From Parcubacteria group bacterium LiPW_15 (lineage in GTDB: Bacteria; Patescibacteriota; Minisyncoccia; UBA6257; 2-01-FULL-56-20): a stretch of 64,000 bases of DNA. Location: positions 69,139 through 133,138 of the forward strand of contig VMER01000001.1 of assembly GCA_007375645.1 (NCBI GenBank). Direction: 5' to 3'. The translations under genes and the position numbers were made by a program. Numbering within the stretch: position 1 is the stretch's first letter; each line of letters starts with the position of its first letter. The notes beneath the pieces were generated by a model. It searched no databases and was not told the origin of the DNA. It saw nothing but the letters and a program-made list of their open reading frames with translations. Below, in pieces: positions 624-22,110 of the stretch.

Positions 624-1467
624 GCATCTTCCGACAAAACGGACCGCTGTGTTTTATCACGGCAGTTGCAATGATGGCTTCGGCGGAGCTTGGGCGGCTT
701 GGAAAAAATTCGGCAACAAAGCCGACTACGTTGCTATGTATCGCGGTACTCCGGTGCCGGACATAAAAAACAAAGAAGTATATTTTATCGACTACACTTT
801 GCCGAGAAAGGAGACTGAGCGATTTATTGCGCGAAACAGACGCGTCACCTGCATCGACCACCATATTACCGCAAAAGAGACGGTGATGATAACCGAGGCG
901 CCCAGTTTTTCATTGGACCATTCCGGAGCGGTGCTGGCCTGGAATTATTTCCATCCGCGGGAAAGGGTCCCCTTACTTTTAAAATACATCGAAGATCGCG
1001 ATCTTTGGAGATGGAAAATGCCGAAAGCCAAAGCGATACTTTCAGGAACTAATTTTTCAAACGAAGCAGTTTGGACCTTTAAAGGTTTCAGCAAGCTTGT
1101 GGCTGATTTTGAGAAACCGGCCTATCGCGCTCAGTGCATAAAAGACGGCGAGATAGCCAAGAGCGTAAGCGACGGGTTTATCGAAAAGATCGCAAGCCAG
1201 GCGGTGGGCGTGAAGCTCGCGGGGATAAAAGCGCTCGCGGTAAATGCGCCGGAATTTTTCTCAAGCGGAGTCGGAAACTATCTGGTTGAAAAAACTGGAA
1301 TCCCCTTCGTAATTATTTGGCAGGTTGATGGCAAGATGATCAGGGTCTCTCTGCGTTCCGGCGGCAAGGCTAACGTCGCGAAAATCGCGGAAAAATTCGG
1401 CGGGGGAGGGCATGAACGATCTGCCGGATTTAGGATAAAGAATTTTAAAAAAATCCCCTGGAAATGA
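592..1467 (+). CDS. DHH/DHHA1 family phosphoesterase (NrnA-like)
   Basis: HGSCNDGFGG motif I, CIDHH motif, C-terminal GGGGHERSAGF (DHHA1); overlaps pgk end. Confidence 0.7.
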   Translation: MARQIERRKNRHLPTKRTAVFYHGSCNDGFGGAWAAWKKFGNKADYVAMYRGTPVPDIKNKEVYFIDYTLPRKETERFIARNRRVTCIDHHITAKETVMITEAPSFSLDHSGAVLAWNYFHPRERVPLLLKYIEDRDLWRWKMPKAKAILSGTNFSNEAVWTFKGFSKLVADFEKPAYRAQCIKDGEIAKSVSDGFIEKIASQAVGVKLAGIKALAVNAPEFFSSGVGNYLVEKTGIPFVIIWQVDGKMIRVSLRSGGKANVAKIAEKFGGGGHERSAGFRIKNFKKIPWK

Positions 1468-2196: not shown

Positions 2197-2570
2197 TTTG
2201 TTGTTGGCAATCCGTAAGCCGGATTCTGTCGGGGACGATCATTTCTCTGGGCCATAGATTGCTCTATAGCTCAAGCGGGCACAAATCCGCCAGCTGGCGG
2301 AAGTACGACCCTTGCACCCAGTAAGGATTTTGCCGTTTCACCTCTTTGGTTTCCCAAAAAGCTCGCCAAGCACAAAATAAATTCTATGCTCGGCGCCTTG
2401 ACCCTTTCGAGTTTCGGCGTCTCTGCTCGCACCTCTATCCTTGCGGACGACGGCCGTTAGCCGCTACTTTTTTACCTAGCACACAAAGTGCTGCGGTGGT
2501 GTCCGGACTTTCCTCCCCCTAAGTTGTCTTGCGACGACCGGGAGCGATCGCCTGTATTACCAACTTTAGT
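2197..2570 (-). ncRNA. rnpB: RNase P RNA, bacterial type A
   Basis: minus-strand GGAGGAAAGTCCGGAC (P4 5-prime strand, RC of 2494-2509) and ACAGAATCCGGCTTAC (P4 3-prime strand, RC of 2214-2229); P1 pairing gttggtaat/attgccaac between ends; TGTATAAT extended -10 just upstream. Confidence 0.8.
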
Positions 2571-14843: not shown

Positions 14844-15491
14844 ATGAAGCCGCTTGGAAAAGTAAATCTAAAATGGTCTCCGGATTTTGCTTATGCGTTG
14901 GGCCTTTTGGCGACTGACGGAAATTTATCTCTGGATGGTAGGCACATAGATCTAACTTCTAAAGATAATGAACAACTTGGAAATTTTTTACGGTGCCTAA
15001 AAATAGCTAATAAAATTGGCTCTAAATATTCCGGTTCCGGTAGAAAATATTTTCGAGTACAAATTGGAGACATAAATTTTTACAAATTTCTTCTTAATGT
15101 CGGGTTTATGCCGGCCAAATCCAAAATTATATCTAAATTGGATATTCCGGATAAGTACTTCTTTGATTTTCTCCGCGGCCATTTTGATGGTGATGGAACT
15201 TTTTATTCTTATCGAGATGCGCGCTGGAGGAATAGTTTTATGTTTTACACAGTTTTTGTTTCCGCAAGCATGGCTCATCTAAAATGGCTAAGAAATAAGC
15301 TTTTTGATAACTTAGATATAAGCGGACACATTTCTTCCAGCAAAAATAGAAGCGCGCATGAGCTCAGGTATGCCAAGGCGGAATCATTGAAATTATTACC
15401 GAAGCTGTATTATAATCCATTGGTAATTTGTTTATCCCGAAAGAGAAACAAGGTAGAGGGGGTATTGGCTTCACAGGGTAAAAAATTATGA
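14844..15491 (+). CDS. single-chain LAGLIDADG homing endonuclease, free-standing
   Basis: two LAGLIDADG motifs: LAYALGLLATDGNL and FLRGHFDGDGTF; not inside an rRNA or intron. Confidence 0.8.
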   Translation: MKPLGKVNLKWSPDFAYALGLLATDGNLSLDGRHIDLTSKDNEQLGNFLRCLKIANKIGSKYSGSGRKYFRVQIGDINFYKFLLNVGFMPAKSKIISKLDIPDKYFFDFLRGHFDGDGTFYSYRDARWRNSFMFYTVFVSASMAHLKWLRNKLFDNLDISGHISSSKNRSAHELRYAKAESLKLLPKLYYNPLVICLSRKRNKVEGVLASQGKKL

Positions 15492-15492
15492 G

Positions 15493-17040
15493 TTATATGC
15501 GCGGGTGGCGAAACTGGCAGACGCACATCCTTGAGATGGATGCGCCCGCAAGGGCTTGCAGGTTCAACTCCTGTCCCGCGCACAAGTTGTCAAAAGTAGG
15601 GTTTTCAGCCATTTTTGCGATTATCGAAAATGGTTTTTTGTATTGATATTCCTGCACATTCTGGCTTTTGATAGAAAGGTTCCAAAGTAAATTTTGAGCA
15701 ATAATTCTTCTTTGCTCTGGAGAAGATTCCAAATATTGTTTTTCCTTTTTATTGCTTGATAAAAACAGCTCTTTTGTCGGTTCCAAAGTACTTCCGGGTT
15801 GTCGGTAGTCTGCGCCAAGTTGCTTAAGTTGGGATTCTAGTTCGACTCTCTTGTTGCCTAATTCAAGCAGTTTTTGCCTATAGACGGCTTCGGGCGTTAC
15901 TCCGTCGATAAAACTATCAACCAAGCGAGATTGTTTATCCTGAAGCGATATAAGTTGTTTTTCGATAGATTCCTGAATTGGTTCCATAGACTGACCTTGC
16001 CCGGCAAGTTTCTCTTTTGCGGCTTGATACATAACCTCAATAAGATCTTCACTCAATTGAAGTTTTCTGAGAGCCTCGGCAACAAAGGCATCAAGAGTTT
16101 CTGAGCGCATATACTTCTTATGCTCCACACAATTTCCTCTGCCATTTGTGCAGTAGTAATAATCATGTCCCTTTTTATGGGTGGCAGTTAATGCACAACC
16201 ACAATTGGCACAAGAAAATATTCCTCGCAAATGAAAAAACAATCCTTTGGGTCGCGTTGCCCTAAGTCGCCCGATAAAAACATCTGAGGCACGATCAAAT
16301 AACTCTTTGGAAATTAATGGTTCATGTTTGCCAGGATAATACTTTCCATCCTTTACCATCATTCCGTAATAAAATGGGTTCTTTAGAATCTTTTGAATGC
16401 GCGAGCGATGAACTTTGTTACCCCTACCGCTTCTAAGACCCTGTTTATAAAACAAATCAGTTATGTCTTCTAGGCTATAGTTTCCGGTGGCATAAGTTTC
16501 AAACATCTTTTTTACATACGGAGCCAAGATAGGGTCGTGGAATATGGTTTTGTCCGCTTTATTATTCTTATACCCAAATGGAGCCATTTGAGGCCATCCG
16601 CCGGCTTCAAGCTTTGCTTTGTTACCACGCTTAACGTTCTTAGAGAGGTCATCAATATACTTTTGAGCCATACCAAATTCTAAATACATGAGGATAGAGT
16701 TTTCATCATCTCGCCGGTAAGACTGCGCCGGAGTAATAATCTCTAAGTCATTCTGTTTAATAGCCCATATAAGACCGCCACCATCAATAGGATTCCTAGA
16801 GAGACGATCGAGCTTCCAGCAGACAATGCCTCGAATCTTCTTTTTAGTTACATAATCAAGCATCTGCCCAAATATTGGGCGGCCGGGTGCTTTCGCAGAT
16901 TGAGACTCAGTAAATATTTTTTCAATTTCTAATCCTCGGCGAGCGGCAAATTCTTCAAGCTCTTTTACTTGAGCAGGGATAGATAGAATTTGTCGACCCT
17001 CGTCTTCGGTGCTTTTCCGGCAATAGATAATATATTTCAT
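15493..17040 (-). CDS. large serine recombinase (integrase)
   Basis: N-terminal resolvase domain IYCRKSTEDEGRQ..SIPAQ, recombinase domain, Cys cluster CANCGC..C..C, C-terminal coiled coil; 515 aa. Confidence 0.85.
   Translation of the reverse strand: MKYIIYCRKSTEDEGRQILSIPAQVKELEEFAARRGLEIEKIFTESQSAKAPGRPIFGQMLDYVTKKKIRGIVCWKLDRLSRNPIDGGGLIWAIKQNDLEIITPAQSYRRDDENSILMYLEFGMAQKYIDDLSKNVKRGNKAKLEAGGWPQMAPFGYKNNKADKTIFHDPILAPYVKKMFETYATGNYSLEDITDLFYKQGLRSGRGNKVHRSRIQKILKNPFYYGMMVKDGKYYPGKHEPLISKELFDRASDVFIGRLRATRPKGLFFHLRGIFSCANCGCALTATHKKGHDYYYCTNGRGNCVEHKKYMRSETLDAFVAEALRKLQLSEDLIEVMYQAAKEKLAGQGQSMEPIQESIEKQLISLQDKQSRLVDSFIDGVTPEAVYRQKLLELGNKRVELESQLKQLGADYRQPGSTLEPTKELFLSSNKKEKQYLESSPEQRRIIAQNLLWNLSIKSQNVQEYQYKKPFSIIAKMAENPTFDNLCAGQELNLQALAGASISRMCVCQFRHPRI
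15499..15582 (+). tRNA. tRNA-Leu (anticodon GAG), class II with long variable arm
   Basis: hand-folded: acceptor GCGCGGG/CCCGCGC, D-stem GCG/CGC, anticodon stem CATCC/GGATG with loop TTGAGAT, long variable arm, T-arm GCAGG-TTCAACT-CCTGT, discriminator A. Confidence 0.85.
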
Positions 17041-17792
17041 TGTTTTTGTGGTTCGTATCCTTGAATATATGTTTTCTTTGTAACTTGTCCCAGAAACTGG
17101 TGTTCTCGGCTAAACTCTCTGGCGGGTTTTTTAACAGAATAGCGTTCGGCTAAATAATCCGCAAACTTGTTCCGAATAATCAGATCGGCTGGGAAGCCAC
17201 GTGAGATCCTTAAAAGTCTCATAGCATTAAACATAACTTGGTTTTTGGACTTGGTTACATATTTGCTAATGTAATATGCCAACTTTCCAGAACCGTCAGT
17301 TTTTGTCGCATCCACATAACCCTCTCCCCAAATGCCAGCGAGGATTCTCGTTTTACGTTCGTCACCGATGGAAACAGTCCGTCCACCTTGGCGCGTATCA
17401 CCAAGAGACAACGGCACGTTAAAAATAAGACCATGGAAATGTATTCTTCCTCTTGGGGAGAGTTCGGGAACAAAGAGAGATTCCGCTTTAGGATATTTAG
17501 ATCGCAACCGCACCTGGAAGACGCGAAGTGAATCGTTTGCATATGAGGCATCTGAGGCGTCGCCTTTAAAGGTGAGAGTAACCAACAACGGAGTCCCAAA
17601 TTCTGCAAGGCCAGCAAACACGCGCCGCACACATATTTGTCGAGTCCGCCGAGCATTATCGGGTCGCCTAGCTCCGAATAAAACATGCCTTTTTCTGGGA
17701 GAGTATAAATGTATTTTGGGCGGTTCTTTTTCAAACCATGTGATTTCTGTGAGTTTCCCATTATTTCTAAAGATTGTAGGCATATTTAACAA
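17037..17792 (-). CDS. rolling-circle replication initiator, HUH endonuclease (Rep_1/phiX-A-like)
   Basis: motif I LLVTLTF, motif II RIHFHGLIF (HUH), motif III YYISKYVTKSK (Y-x-x-K-Y-x-x-K); 4-nt overlap with recombinase gene. Confidence 0.7.
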   Translation of the reverse strand: MLNMPTIFRNNGKLTEITWFEKEPPKIHLYSPRKRHVLFGARRPDNARRTRQICVRRVFAGLAEFGTPLLVTLTFKGDASDASYANDSLRVFQVRLRSKYPKAESLFVPELSPRGRIHFHGLIFNVPLSLGDTRQGGRTVSIGDERKTRILAGIWGEGYVDATKTDGSGKLAYYISKYVTKSKNQVMFNAMRLLRISRGFPADLIIRNKFADYLAERYSVKKPAREFSREHQFLGQVTKKTYIQGYEPQKQ

Positions 17793-18068
17793 CTATGAGG
17801 GTATATCAAGTCAGGCGAGGGAATCCCTCCCGCCTTCGGCGGTCGGGATTCCCTCGCGGACTCGGAAGGAAGGGGATAGAAGGCCAAAAAAAAGTCAACC
17901 AGGTCATCCAGGTATTCAAGAGCTTGATCACGGGAAAGAACTAGGTTGTAGTCCCGCTTAAAGATTCTGGTTATCTCGACAATTAGTGGTTCGCTATACT
18001 GCGTCATAAAAAAATAGGCTTTTTCGGAAGCCTATTCTTTTGAGCCGTGATTCACTTTCGTTCGCCGG

Positions 18069-18650
18069 TTAAAGTAGCCTATAAACTGACTTACCTCGCC
18101 ATTCTAGAAGCATGAGACCCGGAGCTTCGTCCTGAAATTTATCGTTAATTGCCCGAACAGTGTCTGAGATTGATTTTCTTGCCTTTTCCTTTTCGCCCGC
18201 TTCCTTACCCACGACTTCTTCATAAAGAACATCCCAGCTTATCGGTGTATTTATTTTCTGGCCGAACATAAATTTAAGAAGATACGCTTGGCGACTATCT
18301 GGTTCAATCTTAATTTCCTTCCCGCCGTAAAAGAGAATTGTCTGGTTCACATCGTAACTAACGCCGTAAACCTTTTCGTTTTTAAGCTCTCCCTTTTTGA
18401 ACTTCTCAAACCTGTCTTTGTCGATATCAAACATATACAACACATCTTCCAAAGCACCCTTTTCATTACTAGTCGGAACATCGGCAGTGTCGAAAAGGCC
18501 AATTATGCCCAAGCCCTTAAGTTCGTAAAGTAGGGCTTCCATATTTTTCGAACGACCCTCTAGAATGCTTACATTCTTGCGGTTCGGGAAATGAATCAAA
18601 AAATTATTGATTTTGCCTATCAGCTCTTGCATTTCGCCACTCATGTTCAT
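18069..18650 (-). CDS. hypothetical protein with C-terminal OmpR/PhoB-type winged-helix
   Basis: C-terminal SISDTVRAINDKF..LLEWRGKSVYRL resembles trans_reg_C. Confidence 0.4.
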   Translation of the reverse strand: MNMSGEMQELIGKINNFLIHFPNRKNVSILEGRSKNMEALLYELKGLGIIGLFDTADVPTSNEKGALEDVLYMFDIDKDRFEKFKKGELKNEKVYGVSYDVNQTILFYGGKEIKIEPDSRQAYLLKFMFGQKINTPISWDVLYEEVVGKEAGEKEKARKSISDTVRAINDKFQDEAPGLMLLEWRGKSVYRLL

Positions 18651-18802
18651 GTTGAAAAAATAGCGGATTTATTGGATAATTTCAATACAACTGAATAACG
18701 GCCTAAACCGCTTAGCGATAGGTGGCATGGTCAAAAAACTTTCGAGGGCATCAAGCTCCTAGTCAGAGCACCCTCGAAAGTCATACCCCGAAAGGAGTAT
18801 GG

Positions 18803-19333
18803 GTGTCGCAAGACATCGCTGGCTGGGAGCTTTATGTTTCTGGCCAAATAAAATACTACATGGACGCAAAGTTTATAAAACATTTAATAAAGGGAAAAAT
18901 CGCCGAGATTATTTTTGAGCAAATGTTTCGTGAATCAGGGAAATATACAATTCTTCATTCCGGCTACGAATACACCCTGCCCGAGCTGGCTCAATATCAG
19001 CATCTTACGGAAGTGAAGGCCGTAATAGAAAATATCAAAAATGCGCCGGATTTCGTATTAATATCACAAGACAAAAAGGAAGTTCACTTGGTGGAGGTCA
19101 AATATCGCGACCCTAGAAGGCCGGAAGACTTGAAAGAAATAGTCGGAAAAACCTTAGAGATTTGGAATCCATCTTGGCTGTTTGTTGCATCACCTGACGG
19201 ATTTTTCTTTGAACCCTGCAACACAGTTTTAAGAAATAACGGGAATATTGAACGAATGTATGCAAGGTGGGTTGACCCTAAAATCCAGGAAGAATACCTC
19301 AAGCTGCTCAACCAATTTGAGCTGAAAGGATAG
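18803..19333 (+). CDS. PD-(D/E)xK-fold nuclease-like protein (start uncertain, ORF opens at 18722)
   Basis: APDFVLI ... VHLVEVKYR (D ... ExK); SD aaaggag 5 nt before in-frame GTG at 18803. Confidence 0.45.
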   Translation: MSQDIAGWELYVSGQIKYYMDAKFIKHLIKGKIAEIIFEQMFRESGKYTILHSGYEYTLPELAQYQHLTEVKAVIENIKNAPDFVLISQDKKEVHLVEVKYRDPRRPEDLKEIVGKTLEIWNPSWLFVASPDGFFFEPCNTVLRNNGNIERMYARWVDPKIQEEYLKLLNQFELKG

Positions 19334-19391
19334 CAATATTGTTGTGCTGACTTAATTTGCCTAGTTGAAAAGCGAGGGGTAGTATTTGGTT

Positions 19392-21011
19392 ATGAGAATT
19401 TCGAAAATAAAAATTACAAACTTTAGGTCTATAAAAGAAGCCGAAATATTACCTACGGGTTTTAACGTTTTTGTTGGTCAGAATAATCACGGGAAAACCA
19501 ATTTTTTTGAAGCCATAGACTGGTTTTTTACTGGGCCCAAAAAAGGAGAAGGTTTGGAAAAAATAAGATTTGGAAGATCTGGCGATGCAGAAATAGCAGT
19601 AGAAATAGAATTTACCGAAGCCCTGGATGGTGCCGAGAAAATGAAAAACGAAGGGAATAAAACAAAGATAAAACAAGCTCTCGGTGAGAACGATACAGTT
19701 TCGGTTCGGCGAAGTAGCTTGGATCCGAAAAAGCGTACCATTTCAATTGGAGGAGTAGAGTTAGAAAAAGCACCAACTGGATTCGATAATGCCTTGAATG
19801 ATTTTTTGCCAACCTTTCAATACGTCAGCACACAAATAAATCCACTTGATGTTGCCAAGTATGGCAAAAACACACCCATTGCAAATATGCTGTCCGGTGT
19901 GTTGTCGGCCATTCTCGAAAAAGATCCAACATACGCAGCTTTTAAAGAACAATTCGATAAGCTATTTACTGCTCCGGGGTCTTTAGTTCGCGTTGAATTA
20001 AACGAACTTAGTAAGCAAGTAAAGGTATATCTCGAAAAACAATTTCCAGATTGTCTGGAAGTAGCCTTTGAGGTATCACAACCAGTTTTTGAGGACTTAC
20101 TTAAAAATTTTGAAACCTCAATAGATGATGGGGTTTATACTAGCGCAGATGAAAAAGGAGACGGGATGCAAAGGGCCTTGATGCTTGCAATCATCCAAAC
20201 CTACGCAGATTTTAGGAGAGAAAACGAGGAAACTAGCAAATTCTTTCTTTTCTTTATTGACGAAGGAGAACTCCACTTGCATCCCACCGCGCAGAGAAAA
20301 CTTAAAAATGCCCTGCTAGAACTGTCTCGAGGTGGTGACCAAATCTTTTTAAACACCCATTCGTCAGTTTTGATTTCTGACGAAACCGAGGGGCAAACGA
20401 TATTCAAAGTTGAAAAAATTAAAAGCGAAACGAGCATTGTTCCCGTAAAGGAAGACGAGAAGCGCTACATAGTATATGAACTGCTTGGCGGTAGTCCAGC
20501 GGATCTTCTTTTGCCCAGAAATTTTCTCATAGTTGAAGGTAAAAGTGAATATGAATTTTTATCTCGTGTGATTGCAAGATTTTATGTGGATAAACCTAAG
20601 GTTCAGATTATTTATGCCGAAGGCAACCATGAGAGACAGCGACAAACAATGGAAGGAATAAATAAGGTTTATGTGCCGCTTTTTGCAAATCCGGTATACA
20701 GAGATAAGCTAATTATCCTTTGCGATACCCCAAGCGCAGAGGCGGCAACGAGCTTTGAAACTTTTAAAAGTACATACCCAGCCCTGACTTCAAACGGACA
20801 ACTTATTGTTAACCCTCTGCCCAGCCTGGAGGAATACTATCCATCTCCTTGGAAAAAAACAGATGTCGAGGTTAAAGCTATGGACGCAGACAAAAATGCG
20901 AAACTATTGCTGGCCAGAGAGGTTGGAAGTGGCATAACTCAGGCACAATTTGAAACGGATATGCCAATTGTCTTCCAAGCTCTCCAAGATTGTTGGTCGA
21001 AGGCCTACTAA
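19392..21011 (+). CDS. OLD-family ATP-dependent nuclease (ABC ATPase fused to Toprim)
   Basis: Walker A GQNNHGKTN, Walker B FFLFFIDEGELHLHP, H-loop FLNTHS, C-terminal Toprim-like LIVEGKSEYEF. Confidence 0.7.
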   Translation: MRISKIKITNFRSIKEAEILPTGFNVFVGQNNHGKTNFFEAIDWFFTGPKKGEGLEKIRFGRSGDAEIAVEIEFTEALDGAEKMKNEGNKTKIKQALGENDTVSVRRSSLDPKKRTISIGGVELEKAPTGFDNALNDFLPTFQYVSTQINPLDVAKYGKNTPIANMLSGVLSAILEKDPTYAAFKEQFDKLFTAPGSLVRVELNELSKQVKVYLEKQFPDCLEVAFEVSQPVFEDLLKNFETSIDDGVYTSADEKGDGMQRALMLAIIQTYADFRRENEETSKFFLFFIDEGELHLHPTAQRKLKNALLELSRGGDQIFLNTHSSVLISDETEGQTIFKVEKIKSETSIVPVKEDEKRYIVYELLGGSPADLLLPRNFLIVEGKSEYEFLSRVIARFYVDKPKVQIIYAEGNHERQRQTMEGINKVYVPLFANPVYRDKLIILCDTPSAEAATSFETFKSTYPALTSNGQLIVNPLPSLEEYYPSPWKKTDVEVKAMDADKNAKLLLAREVGSGITQAQFETDMPIVFQALQDCWSKAY

Positions 21012-21027
21012 TCTAAAGTTTCTAATT

Positions 21028-21357
21028 ATGAGAATAAAAGATCTATTTAAATCAACCGGCATTTCGCAATCATTCGGAGGCGTAGCTCCTCGATTGGATA
21101 AAAATAATTGTCGGGTTGAAAATAAGACCAAAAATGAAGACTCGGTGCTACTTCGTTTAAAAAGGATGTCAGACGGAGAGGAGGGAAATGCATATTTGAG
21201 GGTTCAAGAACAATTTTCAAGCATAACCCCGCAATTGCTTGGTTGGGCTTTTAATAGCAATAAAATTATTGGGCTTTCTCTAAACGAGCTGGACGACTTT
21301 GAAACAGGCCTTGAAATAGAAAATTTACAAGGACGACTTCGATTAATTACTGATTAA
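21028..21357 (+). CDS. hypothetical protein
   Basis: ORF only; no SD. Confidence 0.3.
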   Translation: MRIKDLFKSTGISQSFGGVAPRLDKNNCRVENKTKNEDSVLLRLKRMSDGEEGNAYLRVQEQFSSITPQLLGWAFNSNKIIGLSLNELDDFETGLEIENLQGRLRLITD

Positions 21358-21393
21358 AAAGGTTCCAACATCGTTCCATTCCGTGCAAAATAT
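21356..21393. repeat. R1: degenerate copy of tRNA-Leu 3-prime half (aaaaaggttccaacatcgttccattccgtgcaaaatat)
   Basis: about 85% identical to R2 over 40 nt. Confidence 0.55.
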
Positions 21394-21394
21394 T

Positions 21395-21886
21395 ATGATA
21401 CTACTTATTTTAACCTCAATACTCAAAGCAATAATTGCCTGGTTTATTATCACTTATGTCGGGACCAATCTCATTGGTTTTATTGGGAGGGGTCTTTGGG
21501 AAGAAAGATTGGATGTGAATAAATTAGATCTCTCTGATAATCCTATAAAGGATCTTGCAAAGAAAGAAATTAAAAGATGGAACAACTCTGGCGACATAAT
21601 AACCGGGTTATCATTTTTGGCTACAATAGGAATTTGTTATTACTTGTACAGTTATTGGGGAACTCTATTTTTGATTGCCATCATTATAACAATGGCAAGC
21701 AGGGCACCAGATCTTTATTGGGAGGTTCGCGTCCTTCCAAAACAATTAGGCATACCATATCCAGTTCCAAAAGATTTAATTCGGAAAGCAATAAAAGAAG
21801 ATAAAAACAAATCTTTATTTAAAACCCTACTAGGGCTTTCGAGTTTCGCAACGTTCGTAATTCTTTTTATAGCATTCTTTATTTAA
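21395..21886 (+). CDS. hypothetical 4-TM membrane protein bracketed by R1 and R2
   Basis: hydrophobic helices; ATG at 21395 after GTG-extended ORF from 21383. Confidence 0.45.
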   Translation: MILLILTSILKAIIAWFIITYVGTNLIGFIGRGLWEERLDVNKLDLSDNPIKDLAKKEIKRWNNSGDIITGLSFLATIGICYYLYSYWGTLFLIAIIITMASRAPDLYWEVRVLPKQLGIPYPVPKDLIRKAIKEDKNKSLFKTLLGLSSFATFVILFIAFFI

Positions 21887-21916: not shown

Positions 21917-21955
21917 AAAAAGGTTCCAACATCGTCCCATCCCGCGCACAAAATA
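21917..21955. repeat. R2: attR-like degenerate copy of tRNA-Leu T-arm/acceptor 3-prime half (aaaaaggttccaacatcgtcccatcccgcgcacaaaata)
   Basis: aligns to tRNA 15561-15587; exact cccgcgcacaa. Confidence 0.55.
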
Positions 21956-22110
21956 AAAATACTACCCTCGCGGTAGTGTTTTTGTTTTCGTGTGTTGGAA
22001 GAAGAGGATTTGAACAAGGAGGAGGGGTCGGGAGGAAGCGTGGCGTCCTCCCGTGTCGGAGATTATTCTCGCCCCAAGAAGATTCCGCGTATAAGTTGTA
22101 TAATTAAAAT

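What the first reader, a model, noticed from the sequence alone, without database searches (positions are those of the whole stretch)
18803..21011. OLD-family ATPase-Toprim nuclease with adjacent PD-(D/E)xK nuclease as cargo of the element
The protein at 19392-21011 combines an ABC ATPase head (GQNNHGKTN, FFLFFIDEGELHLHP, FLNTHS) with a C-terminal Toprim-like segment (LIVEGKSEYEF). That is the architecture of P2 Old, class 1 OLD and GajA. It sits 52 nt after a small PD-(D/E)xK-fold protein, and no UvrD-like helicase is present. An OLD-like nuclease paired with a second nuclease on a mobile element in a CPR-like genome is a plausible anti-phage or anti-plasmid module. The Toprim DxD motif is atypical (ILCDTP), so the nuclease may be divergent.
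Basis: partly seen in the sequence, partly recalled or inferred. Interest (0 to 1): 0.6.

Follow-up and report, generated by a model that had tools for sequence, protein, structure and literature searches.

The report
Stand-alone OLD defence gene on integrative element
A small mobile element inserted at a tRNA gene of a Parcubacteria genome carries a single-gene OLD-type ATPase-nuclease, very probably an anti-phage gene, and the small nuclease next to it belongs to the element's own backbone and is not the OLD protein's partner.

Summary
Window 19392-21011 (+) encodes a 539-aa OLD-family protein with an intact ABC ATPase head and a C-terminal Toprim-like domain. Its best matches are the PADLOC Old model (2e-59), Thermus class 1 OLD (profile E 2e-33) and phage P2 Old (27% identity). 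SMC, Rad50 and RecF score far lower. The Toprim is degenerate across the whole clade: the Glu, the +4 acid, the first Asp and the beta4 Glu are kept, but the second Asp of DxD is lost, and Pfam's OLD Toprim model does not match. The upstream 157-aa protein (true start 18860, not 18803) has a PD-(D/E)xK fold with invariant PD...EVK.

The two-nuclease module is not supported. None of 17 loci with OLD-clade homologues carries the small gene. None of about 83 loci with small-gene homologues carries this OLD. The small gene instead recurs with the serine recombinase and rolling-circle Rep backbone. A sister element has the same backbone but different cargo after the small gene. OLD homologues mostly sit beside restriction-modification genes or in prophage accessory loci.

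Verdict: a class 1-like, stand-alone OLD carried as swappable cargo, with a variant Toprim.

In passing: a LOOT RNA (Rfam RF03000) lies 42 nt upstream of the small gene.

The parts
15499..15583 (+). tRNA-Leu(gag), the integration site and left border of the island
   Evidence: Found by ARAGORN and Rfam tRNA. Homologous recombinases abut tRNA-Leu, tRNA-Ser and tRNA-Gln in L013, L088 and L089.
15493..17040 (-). Large serine recombinase, 515 aa. Its 3' end runs antisense through the tRNA gene.
   Evidence: Pfam Resolvase, Recombinase and Zn_ribbon_recom. Homologues lie next to OLD homologues in L013 and L014 and next to small-gene homologues in 7 loci.
17037..17792 (-). Rolling-circle replication initiator-like protein (REP_ORF2-G2P)
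   Evidence: Pfam PF23343, E 4e-12. PHROG 3419, rolling-circle replication initiation. 64% identical homologue in sister element L026.
17786..18007 (-). 73-aa backbone ORF of unknown function. It contains a 20-nt-arm palindrome at 17815-17857.
   Evidence: ORF list. Weak homologue in L089. Inverted repeat I4.
18069..18650 (-). 193-aa backbone ORF of unknown function
   Evidence: No family hit. 29% identical homologue at the same position in L026.
18652..18680 (+). Promoter-like site (TTGAAA, 17 nt spacer, GATAAT) just upstream of LOOT. This is a consensus match only.
   Evidence: The number of such sites in the region is no higher than in shuffled sequence.
18700..18817 (+). LOOT RNA (Rfam RF03000), 42 nt upstream of the small gene
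   Evidence: 90.9 bits against a gathering score of 46.4, covering the full model 1-121. A second copy sits at the same relative position in L026.
18860..19333 (+). 157-aa PD-(D/E)xK-fold protein, a recurrent backbone gene of the element family and not a conserved OLD partner
   Evidence: AF2 mean pLDDT 90.7. All top Foldseek PDB hits are PD-(D/E)xK nucleases such as Hjc, RecU, the SPARDA nuclease and PA-N. E16, E20, D64, E79 and K81 are invariant and P63 is nearly invariant.
19392..20450 (+). OLD protein, N-terminal ABC ATPase with inserted helical region (aa 1 to about 353)
   Evidence: Pfam AAA_15 4e-32 and AAA_21. PADLOC Old 2e-59. Invariant Walker A GxxNxGK, signature-like GDGMQR, Walker B DE, HLHP and H323.
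20514..21011 (+). OLD protein, degenerate Toprim-like domain plus C-terminal helical bundle (aa 375-539)
   Evidence: AF2 beta-alpha topology over aa 378-473. E382 is invariant, residue 386 is E or D, and D445 and E480 are nearly invariant to invariant. The second Asp of DxD is absent in the clade. No PF20469 hit. hhalign matches the first half to PF20469-positive relatives, E 1e-4.
20950..21357 (+). 135-aa ORF overlapping the OLD 3' end (possibly 109 aa from the Met at 21028). Unknown function, not conserved next to other OLDs.
21356..21404 (+). First copy of a 49-nt direct repeat that contains a decayed tRNA-Leu 3'-end-like sequence. Candidate old right border.
   Evidence: Repeat families D1 and D4.
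21383..21886 (+). 167-aa ORF of unknown function, flanked by the two 49-nt repeats
21917..21965 (+). Second copy of the 49-nt repeat. It holds the best tRNA-Leu 3'-end remnant (21921-21951) and is the likely right border of the island.
   Evidence: GC rises to host level after about 22 kb.

Best explanation
The 539-aa protein is a stand-alone OLD-family ATPase-nuclease of the class 1, P2 Old-like kind. It is carried as exchangeable cargo on a composite integrative island of about 6.4 kb at tRNA-Leu. The island's shared backbone is a large serine recombinase, a rolling-circle Rep, small ORFs, a LOOT RNA and a small PD-(D/E)xK protein. That backbone ends at the small gene, and OLD follows it as cargo.

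Inferred mechanism, from work on P2 Old, TsOLD and Vibrio cholerae OLD: the ABC ATPase head binds and hydrolyses ATP and controls the C-terminal Toprim domain. In response to an infecting phage or competing element, the Toprim domain cuts nucleic acid in a metal-dependent way (DNA nicking or degradation, or tRNA cleavage), which stops the invader or the infected cell.

Shown here: family assignment, domain architecture, motif conservation, island context, lack of any conserved partner, and habitual association of the clade with restriction-modification genes and mobile elements.

Inferred only: the defence function, the substrate, and catalytic competence of the variant Toprim.

The adjacent PD-(D/E)xK protein works independently of OLD. 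It is a recurrent gene of this element family and of defence or variable regions in Patescibacteria.
For: Family assignment:
- PADLOC Old model 2e-59, with GajA models around 1e-20. PHROG 4747 at 2e-81.
- In a PDB sequence search with the single protein, TsOLD 6p74 and GajA are the best hits.
- With a family profile, TsOLD scores 1.9e-33, GajA 4e-26, retron-Eco8 OLD 2.5e-19, Rad50/SMC about 1e-9 and RecF 1e-5.
- The best phage hit is P2 Old itself, 27% identity over aa 1-411, E 3e-27.
- Foldseek with the AF2 model (pLDDT 83.8) ranks GajA, TsOLD and retron-Eco8 OLD first, with alignments of about 590-640 columns.

Motifs:
- ATPase motifs are invariant across 32-49 homologues.
- Toprim residues E382, E/D386, D445 and E480 align with the corresponding P2 Old residues.

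Stand-alone status:
- No helicase or reverse transcriptase lies nearby.
- Neighbours of 17 homologue loci show no recurring partner.

Defence and mobility context:
- 9 of 17 homologue loci are adjacent to restriction-modification or McrBC genes (L009, L010, L011, L012, L014, L017, L225, L226, L228).
- One locus lies beside ubiquitin-like E1/E2 (ThiF, Prok-E2) genes and 4.8 kb from an SduA_C-domain gene (L001).
- Five loci have integrases nearby (L013, L014, L018, L226, L227).
- The window has low GC and tRNA-3' remnants at the right border.

Small gene as backbone:
- L026, L088 and L089 share the order recombinase, Rep, then small gene, with different cargo afterwards.
Against: - No experiment exists for any member of this clade.
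- The Toprim is atypical. Pfam PF20469 does not match, although it matches more distant relatives that keep DLD.
- A profile of the C-terminal domain alone finds nothing in the PDB.
- The second Asp of the metal-A site, reported as conserved in all class 1 homologues (PMC7049728), is missing. Nuclease activity may therefore be weak, altered or lost.
- I could not inspect model coordinates, so I could not confirm that the four conserved acids cluster in space.
- The review describes class 1 OLDs as not lying next to other defence genes (PMC10568477), whereas this clade often does.
- No terminator-like site separates the small gene from OLD, so co-transcription and some local cooperation cannot be excluded.
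Confidence: 0.7

Rival explanations
1. Two-nuclease module. OLD and the upstream PD-(D/E)xK protein work together as one defence system. The small nuclease might supply the cleavage activity that the degenerate Toprim has lost, as PtuB does for PtuA or AriB for AriA.
For: - The genes are on the same strand, 58 nt apart, with no terminator-like site between them and a shared promoter-like site upstream.
- They have the same GC content, 0.40.
- The Toprim lacks one metal-A Asp.
- In one other locus, L070, a small-gene homologue is followed directly by a distant AAA_15/AriA-like ABC ATPase.
Against: - The small gene is absent from all 17 loci with OLD-clade homologues, which share the same degenerate Toprim.
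- This OLD is absent from about 83 small-gene loci, of which 34 have at least 1.7 kb downstream.
- The sister element L026 has LOOT and the small gene but other cargo.
- The small gene was not found in IMG/VR, whereas OLD homologues were.
- Upstream neighbours of other OLDs are unrelated to the small protein.
Confidence: 0.08
2. ATPase-driven effector with a non-catalytic Toprim. The clade has lost two-metal nuclease chemistry. The ATPase domain is the effector or sensor, and the Toprim remnant is structural or regulatory, as reported for E. coli YbjD, where the Toprim domain is dispensable.
For: - Loss of the second DxD Asp is clade-wide, while the ATPase motifs are invariant.
- There is no PF20469 match.
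- For YbjD, deleting the Toprim keeps the anti-phage phenotype, while deleting the ATPase abolishes it (PMC13261556).
Against: - E382, E/D386, D445 and E480 remain invariant or nearly so across 30-79% identity, which implies selection on a metal-binding site.
- In TsOLD, mutants of either the metal-A triad or the metal-B triad alone still nick and linearise DNA (PMC7049728).
- Vibrio cholerae OLD, with a variant metal-B triad, is still a nickase and needs conserved TOPRIM acidic residues in vivo (PMC12392090).
Confidence: 0.15
3. Housekeeping role. The protein is an SMC/RecF-like repair or chromosome protein, or a Cran1-like cell-cycle OLD, and not a defence gene.
For: - Weak Pfam and NCBIfam matches of the first ~50-110 residues to SMC_N, RecF and Rad50.
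- An archaeal OLD, Cran1, has a non-defence role (PMC12796447).
Against: - OLD and GajA outrank SMC, Rad50 and RecF by many orders of magnitude.
- The gene lies in a low-GC island next to a recombinase.
- Homologues are scattered across Patescibacteria, Planctomycetota, Omnitrophota, Gammaproteobacteria, Balneolales and predicted viral contigs (IMG/VR), in variable neighbourhoods.
- The genome has its own SMC gene nearby.
Confidence: 0.03

Closest known systems
Phage P2 Old (archetypal class 1 OLD)
   Same: [quoted passage not shown]
- It is the best phage-database hit: 27% identity over aa 1-411, E 3e-27. The PADLOC Old model gives 2e-59.
- The LLVEGKTE motif of P2 Old closely matches LIVEGKSE here.
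- Both are accessory genes on mobile elements.
   Different: - P2 Old has DCD where this protein has DTP.
- P2 Old has an insert of about 80 aa between DxD and beta4, against about 30 aa here.
- This clade has its own conserved C-terminal helical bundle (K504, F520, E521, C534, W535).
- The carrier here is a serine-recombinase/Rep element, not a tailed prophage.
Thermus scotoductus OLD (PDB 6P74, class 1)
   Same: - Best PDB match by sequence and by profile (E 1.9e-33), with the profile alignment running through the Toprim start.
- Foldseek E 5e-20 over 593 columns.
- Stand-alone gene with a compact Toprim that lacks the class 2 helical domain.
   Different: TsOLD has the full set E377/D431/D433 and D381/S478/E480. 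Here the D433 equivalent is Pro447 and varies across the clade, and the S478 equivalent also varies.
Gabija GajA (class 2 OLD)
   Same: ABC ATPase plus Toprim. Top Foldseek hit (8u7i, E 2e-20). The sequence alignment includes the catalytic Glu motif.
   Different: No GajB (UvrD-like) gene lies downstream. PADLOC GajA models score about 40 orders of magnitude worse than Old.
PD-(D/E)xK nucleases of the Hjc / RecU / SPARDA-nuclease kind (for the small protein)
   Same: Alpha-beta-beta-beta-alpha-beta core and an E...PD...E-x-K motif. All top Foldseek PDB hits belong to this fold.
   Different: - TM-scores are low (0.33-0.48) and identity is 10-15%.
- There is no Pfam, NCBIfam or PADLOC family.
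- Its context is mobile elements and defence islands, not a recombination operon.

Membership tests
OLD family (ATPase-Toprim nucleases) | N-terminal ABC-type ATPase with Walker A, Walker B, D-loop and H-loop | tested here: met
   Pfam AAA_15 4e-32 and AAA_21 2e-17. G29, N31, N32, G34, K35, E291 and H323 are invariant and D290 and H297 nearly invariant across 49 sequences, and all of these are invariant within the 32-sequence clade.
OLD family (ATPase-Toprim nucleases) | ATPase closer to OLD/GajA than to SMC/Rad50/RecF | tested here: met
   Profile against PDB: TsOLD 1.9e-33, GajA 4e-26, Rad50/SMC about 1e-9, RecF 1e-5. Foldseek gives the same order.
OLD family (ATPase-Toprim nucleases) | C-terminal Toprim fold | tested here: inconclusive
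   For: AF2 beta-alpha-beta-alpha-beta-alpha-beta topology over aa 378-473. Foldseek alignments to TsOLD and GajA (593 and 632 columns) long enough to include both domains. hhalign of the first half to PF20469-positive relatives, E 1.2e-4, probability 55%. Against: no PF20469 hit and no PDB hit for the C-terminal profile alone. A residue-level superposition was not possible.
OLD family (ATPase-Toprim nucleases) | Toprim catalytic Glu and DxD (metal A) | tested here: not met
   The Glu is present and invariant (E382) and the first Asp is present (D445). The second Asp is absent: D-T-P here, and D-K-P, D-K-Q, D-R-P and others across the clade. Relatives with PF20469 have DLD or DKD.
OLD family (ATPase-Toprim nucleases) | Metal-B ligands (acid at Glu+4, Ser/Thr/Asn, Glu after beta4) | tested here: inconclusive
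   E/D386 and E480 are conserved. The residue at 478 varies (S, H, R, A, N, T). Spatial clustering was not checked.
Class 1 OLD | Single gene with no fixed partner and a variable neighbourhood | tested here: met
   17 homologue loci show no recurring neighbour family.
Class 2 OLD (Gabija GajA) | [quoted passage not shown] | tested here: not met
   The downstream ORFs at 20950-21357 and 21383-21886 have no Pfam hit. No helicase appears in the Pfam table of the identical locus L229.
Class 3 OLD (retron effector) | Adjacent reverse transcriptase and retron ncRNA | tested here: not met
   No RT lies in the island. The NCBIfam retron Eco8 effector model scores 68 bits against a cut-off of 250. The only ncRNA found is LOOT, not a retron msr/msd.
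Class 4 OLD (PARIS AriA/AriB) | ATPase and Toprim (DUF4435) on separate adjacent proteins | tested here: not met
   Both domains are in one 539-aa chain. The PADLOC AriA hit (5e-34) is much weaker than Old. The small neighbour has a PD-(D/E)xK fold, not a Toprim.
PD-(D/E)xK nuclease superfamily (small protein) | Alpha-beta-beta-beta-alpha-beta core with D...(D/E)xK catalytic motif | tested here: met
   AF2 pLDDT 90.7 with matching topology. D64, E79 and K81 are invariant, as are E16 and E20. The top 50 Foldseek hits are almost all PD-(D/E)xK enzymes.
Holliday junction resolvases Hjc/RecU (small protein) | Close structural match and a recombination-gene context | tested here: inconclusive
   The best hit is 2eo0, E 2.6e-4, but with TM only 0.37-0.45. 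The context is mostly mobile or defence genes.
LOOT RNA (Rfam RF03000) | Score above the curated gathering threshold over the full covariance model | tested here: met
   90.9 bits against 46.4, model positions 1-121 of 121. L026 copy scores 82.2 bits.

The most novel reading that the evidence does not exclude
The promoter-like site, LOOT RNA, small PD-(D/E)xK gene and OLD gene may form one transcription unit. In that reading the structured LOOT leader controls or cooperates with the two nucleases. The DxD-less OLD clade would then be a distinct OLD class whose Toprim no longer acts as a classical two-metal DNase, for example an RNA- or tRNA-directed enzyme or a sensor domain.
Probability: 0.07. 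Interest if true: 0.65.

Novelty: new variant of a known kind. Interest (0 to 1): 0.3.

Why it matters
Class 1 (stand-alone) OLD genes are reported as rare, at 0.45% of bacterial genomes (PMC13261556), and are the least understood OLD class. This window gives three leads.

- **A sizeable clade.** About 78 cluster representatives at 50% identity score below E 1e-30. The clade is common in Patescibacteria and moves between phyla. It usually sits beside restriction-modification genes.
- **A natural variant.** The clade lacks one metal-A Asp. This makes it a natural test of how much of the two-metal site an OLD nuclease needs.
- **A mobile-element context.** The window documents a compact integrative element in a CPR genome (serine recombinase, rolling-circle Rep, LOOT RNA, small nuclease) with swappable cargo. 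It also gives a genomic home to the LOOT RNA, which the Rfam 14 paper lists among metagenome-based RNAs.

None of this overturns current views, and the proposed two-nuclease system is not real.

Tried and rejected
- **C-terminal domain alone against the PDB.** A profile of this domain gave no significant hit.
- **BFVD fold search with the OLD model.** It returned only generic ABC ATPases and endonucleases from viruses and was uninformative.
- **Similarity between the small protein and other OLD upstream neighbours.** The upstream neighbours in L001 and L013 are unrelated to it.
- **A tRNA-3' remnant between the 193-aa ORF and the small gene.** This would have placed the small gene outside the element. 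None was found.
- **An empty integration site.** I looked for one through the identical small protein P0121, but the contig is the same organism with the same island.
- **Synteny in L023.** L023 has tRNA-Leu, a 133-aa ORF, the small gene, then MgsA. This first suggested that the small gene is a host gene. I rejected that reading because L026, L088 and L089 place the small gene after the recombinase and Rep, and because its GC matches the island.
- **LOOT in IMG/VR.** A sequence pattern gave 120 hits, and none passed a stricter pattern, so they are chance matches.
- **Literature on LOOT.** Three papers were checked. The discovery paper has no description in its main text, and the other two each give a single passing mention.
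Full report
**1. What is in the sequence**

The window comes from Parcubacteria group bacterium LiPW_15. The two proteins are recorded as LiPW15_91 and LiPW15_92.

A stretch from about 14.5 to 22 kb has a GC content of 0.39-0.43, against 0.47-0.51 in the flanks. Gene by gene, the recombinase, the small gene and the OLD gene are each about 0.40.

The island starts at tRNA-Leu(gag), 15499-15583. In order, it contains:
- a large serine recombinase at 15493-17040 (-), whose 3' end is antisense to the tRNA;
- a REP_ORF2-G2P rolling-circle initiator-like protein at 17037-17792 (-);
- two unknown ORFs of 73 and 193 aa on the minus strand;
- on the plus strand, a 157-aa protein, the 539-aa OLD-like protein, and two unknown ORFs.

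Decayed copies of the tRNA 3' end lie at 21360-21390 and 21921-21951. They sit inside a 49-nt direct repeat (21356-21404 and 21917-21965) that flanks the last ORF. The right border of this composite island is therefore near 21.95 kb.

**2. The OLD-like protein**

Sequence and profile evidence:
- Pfam finds AAA_15 (4e-32) and AAA_21, but no Toprim family.
- The PADLOC Old model matches at 2e-59 over aa 1-411. GajA models score around 1e-20.
- PHROG 4747 matches at 2e-81.
- The best phage-database hit is P2 Old itself, 27% identity, E 3e-27.
- Against PDB sequences, the single protein hits TsOLD (6p74) and GajA first.
- A 49-sequence profile gives TsOLD 1.9e-33, GajA 4e-26, retron-Eco8 OLD 2.5e-19, PtuA about 1e-14, Rad50/SMC about 1e-9 and RecF 1e-5.

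Structural evidence:
- An AF2 model has mean pLDDT 83.8.
- It retrieves GajA, TsOLD and retron-Eco8 OLD with near full-length alignments. SMC and Rad50 heads match only in part.

The Toprim-fold test is taken up in section 3.

**3. The Toprim is real but degenerate**

The model shows beta(378-381), alpha, beta(405-408), alpha, beta(440-444), alpha, beta(471-473), which is a Toprim-like topology.

Conservation in the clade:
- E382 is invariant.
- Residue 386 is always E or D.
- G411, D445 and E480 are invariant or nearly so.

In an alignment with P2 Old, these residues fall on the LLVEGKTE, GKG, DCD and IE motifs of P2 Old.

TsOLD uses E377/D431/D433 for metal A and D381/S478/E480 for metal B, and these residues are said to be conserved in all class 1 homologues (PMC7049728). 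Here the equivalent of D433 is Pro447. Across the clade that position is P, Q, H, V and others, never a conserved acid.

More distant relatives from the exhaustive search keep DLD or DKD and are recognised by Pfam OLD-like_TOPRIM at E 1e-7 to 1e-19. Clade members P0274 and P0277 are not recognised.

Profile-profile comparison aligns only the first half of the domain, E 1.2e-4. The C-terminal profile alone finds nothing in the PDB.

I could not check the three-dimensional clustering of the four acids.

**4. The small protein**

Homologues are about 157 aa long and start at MDAKF, so the gene starts at 18860. E16, E20, D64, E79 and K81 are invariant and P63 is nearly invariant, giving a textbook PD...E-x-K motif.

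The AF2 model (pLDDT 90.7) has the alpha-beta-beta-beta-alpha-beta core. All leading Foldseek hits are PD-(D/E)xK nucleases: Hjc, RecU, the SPARDA nuclease domain, type IIG enzymes and influenza PA-N. TM-scores are low, at 0.33-0.48.

No curated family matches it.

**5. Are the two genes a module?**

Starting from OLD:
- One Planctomycetota locus, eleven other GTDB genome loci, the closest relative (79% identity, L020) and four IMG/VR loci give 17 loci in all.
- None contains the small gene, by tblastn or by profile search.

Starting from the small gene:
- 80 metagenome loci plus three others were examined.
- None contains this OLD. Of these loci, 34 have at least 1.7 kb downstream and 45 have at least 1.7 kb upstream.

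The only near-exception is L070. There a distant AAA_15/AriA-like ABC ATPase, truncated by the contig end, follows a small-gene homologue.

By contrast, the small gene recurs with the element backbone:
- L026 has a recombinase at 46%, Rep at 64%, a homologue of the 193-aa ORF, and then the small gene.
- L089 has tRNA-Gln, recombinase, Rep, a homologue of the 73-aa ORF, and the small gene.
- L088 has tRNA-Ser, recombinase, Rep and the small gene.
- Four more loci have a related recombinase nearby.

What follows the small gene differs between elements:
- a PKD protein and RmuC in L089;
- an Ltp lipoprotein, DUF488 and a cupredoxin in L088;
- two unknown proteins and a methyltransferase in L026.

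Nucleotide homology between L026 and the window stops at the end of the small gene.

The small gene is therefore backbone and OLD is cargo. Other recurrent neighbours of the small gene are GmrSD-HNH (7 loci), MmeI (3), SF1 helicase with DUF559 (3) and NUDIX (4), which indicates variable or defence regions.

**6. Context of the OLD clade**

Neighbours of the 17 homologue loci:
- TdeIII endonuclease with a methylase (L009, L012);
- NgoPII with a C5 methylase (L010, L011);
- two methylases (L014);
- a type III res subunit and an SNF2 helicase (L017);
- McrBC (L225);
- a methylase and a tyrosine integrase (L226);
- terminase on one side and integrase on the other (L227);
- HsdS (L228);
- ubiquitin-like E1/E2 (ThiF, Prok-E2) genes alongside, and an SduA_C-domain gene 4.8 kb away (L001);
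- serine recombinases at tRNA-Leu(gag) or elsewhere (L013, L014, L018).

No helicase of the GajB kind and no reverse transcriptase recurs. This is the pattern expected of a stand-alone defence gene that travels on mobile elements and settles in defence islands.

**7. Mechanism**

Shown here: architecture, motif conservation, mobility and associations.

Inferred from studied relatives: ATP binding and hydrolysis by the ABC head gates a metal-dependent Toprim nuclease.
- P2 Old cleaves the anticodon stems of tRNAs after activation by ATP hydrolysis (PMC12445682).
- TsOLD degrades and nicks DNA.
- Vibrio cholerae OLD is a nickase that needs its Walker motifs and conserved TOPRIM acidic residues in vivo (PMC12392090).
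- In E. coli YbjD the Toprim domain is dispensable (PMC13261556). A non-catalytic Toprim is therefore a live alternative for this DxD-less clade.

**8. Seen in passing**

An Rfam scan found a full-length LOOT RNA (RF03000, 90.9 bits against a threshold of 46.4) at 18700-18817 (+). It lies between the divergent 193-aa ORF and the small gene, 42 nt before the small gene's start codon and just downstream of a promoter-like site.

L026 has a second copy at the same relative position. Sixteen other small-gene loci have none at the gathering threshold, and a sequence pattern found no further copy in any other fetched locus.

The Rfam 14 paper lists LOOT among metagenome-based RNAs (PMC7779021).

The annotated and first-reader 5' extensions of the small ORF overlap this RNA and are spurious.

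**9. Verdict**

The finding is an ordinary kind of thing, a class 1-like OLD defence gene on a mobile element. Two modest points are new: a clade-wide incomplete metal-A site, and a CPR integrative element that places LOOT RNA next to a conserved small nuclease. The proposed two-nuclease system is not supported.

Noticed in passing
window 18700-18817 (+); L026 2075-2192 (+): A full-length LOOT RNA (Rfam RF03000; 90.9 and 82.2 bits against a gathering score of 46.4) lies 42-44 nt upstream of the small PD-(D/E)xK gene on two sister recombinase/Rep elements. It overlaps the annotated 5' extension of the small ORF. It may be a leader of the small gene, an element sRNA or an origin structure.
   Followed up: partly
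window 15493-15583; L013 619-780; L088 177-263; L089 356-427: The 3' end of the serine recombinase ORF runs antisense through the 3' part of the target tRNA gene (Leu, Ser or Gln) in four independent elements. This suggests the attachment site overlaps the recombinase gene end.
   Followed up: partly
L013 about 2261-2400 (-) versus 756-800 (+): An inverted copy of the tRNA-Leu 3' end plus 28 nt of downstream sequence lies on the far side of the serine recombinase gene. The recombinase is therefore bracketed by inverted repeats, which is unexplained.
   Followed up: no
window 21356-21404 and 21917-21965: A 49-nt direct repeat (84% identity) contains tRNA-Leu 3'-end-like remnants and flanks a 167-aa ORF of unknown function. 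It looks like nested or successive integrations at the same tRNA.
   Followed up: partly
window 17815-17857: A near-perfect palindrome (20-nt arms, 90% complementary, 3-nt loop) lies inside the 73-aa ORF, just upstream of the Rep start. It is a candidate rolling-circle origin.
   Followed up: no
window 14844-15491 (+): A LAGLIDADG_3-domain ORF (215 aa) lies immediately upstream of tRNA-Leu. The low-GC stretch already starts here, at about 14.5 kb.
   Followed up: no
L070 557-3249: A GmrSD-HNH gene, a small PD-(D/E)xK homologue and a distant AAA_15/AriA-like ABC ATPase (cut by the contig end) lie in tandem. This is the only other case of an ABC ATPase right after the small gene.
   Followed up: partly
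L009-L012, L014, L017, L225, L226, L228: Homologues of this OLD clade are strikingly often the last gene of, or adjacent to, restriction-modification or McrBC gene sets. In L009-L011 the start codon overlaps the preceding methylase gene, and in L012 it lies 7 nt after the preceding TdeIII endonuclease gene.
   Followed up: partly
L073 7888-7951 (-); L021 1221-2612: Other loci carrying the small gene contain a DUF3800-IX RNA (Rfam RF02968) and a diversity-generating retroelement (RVT_1 plus bAvd).
   Followed up: no
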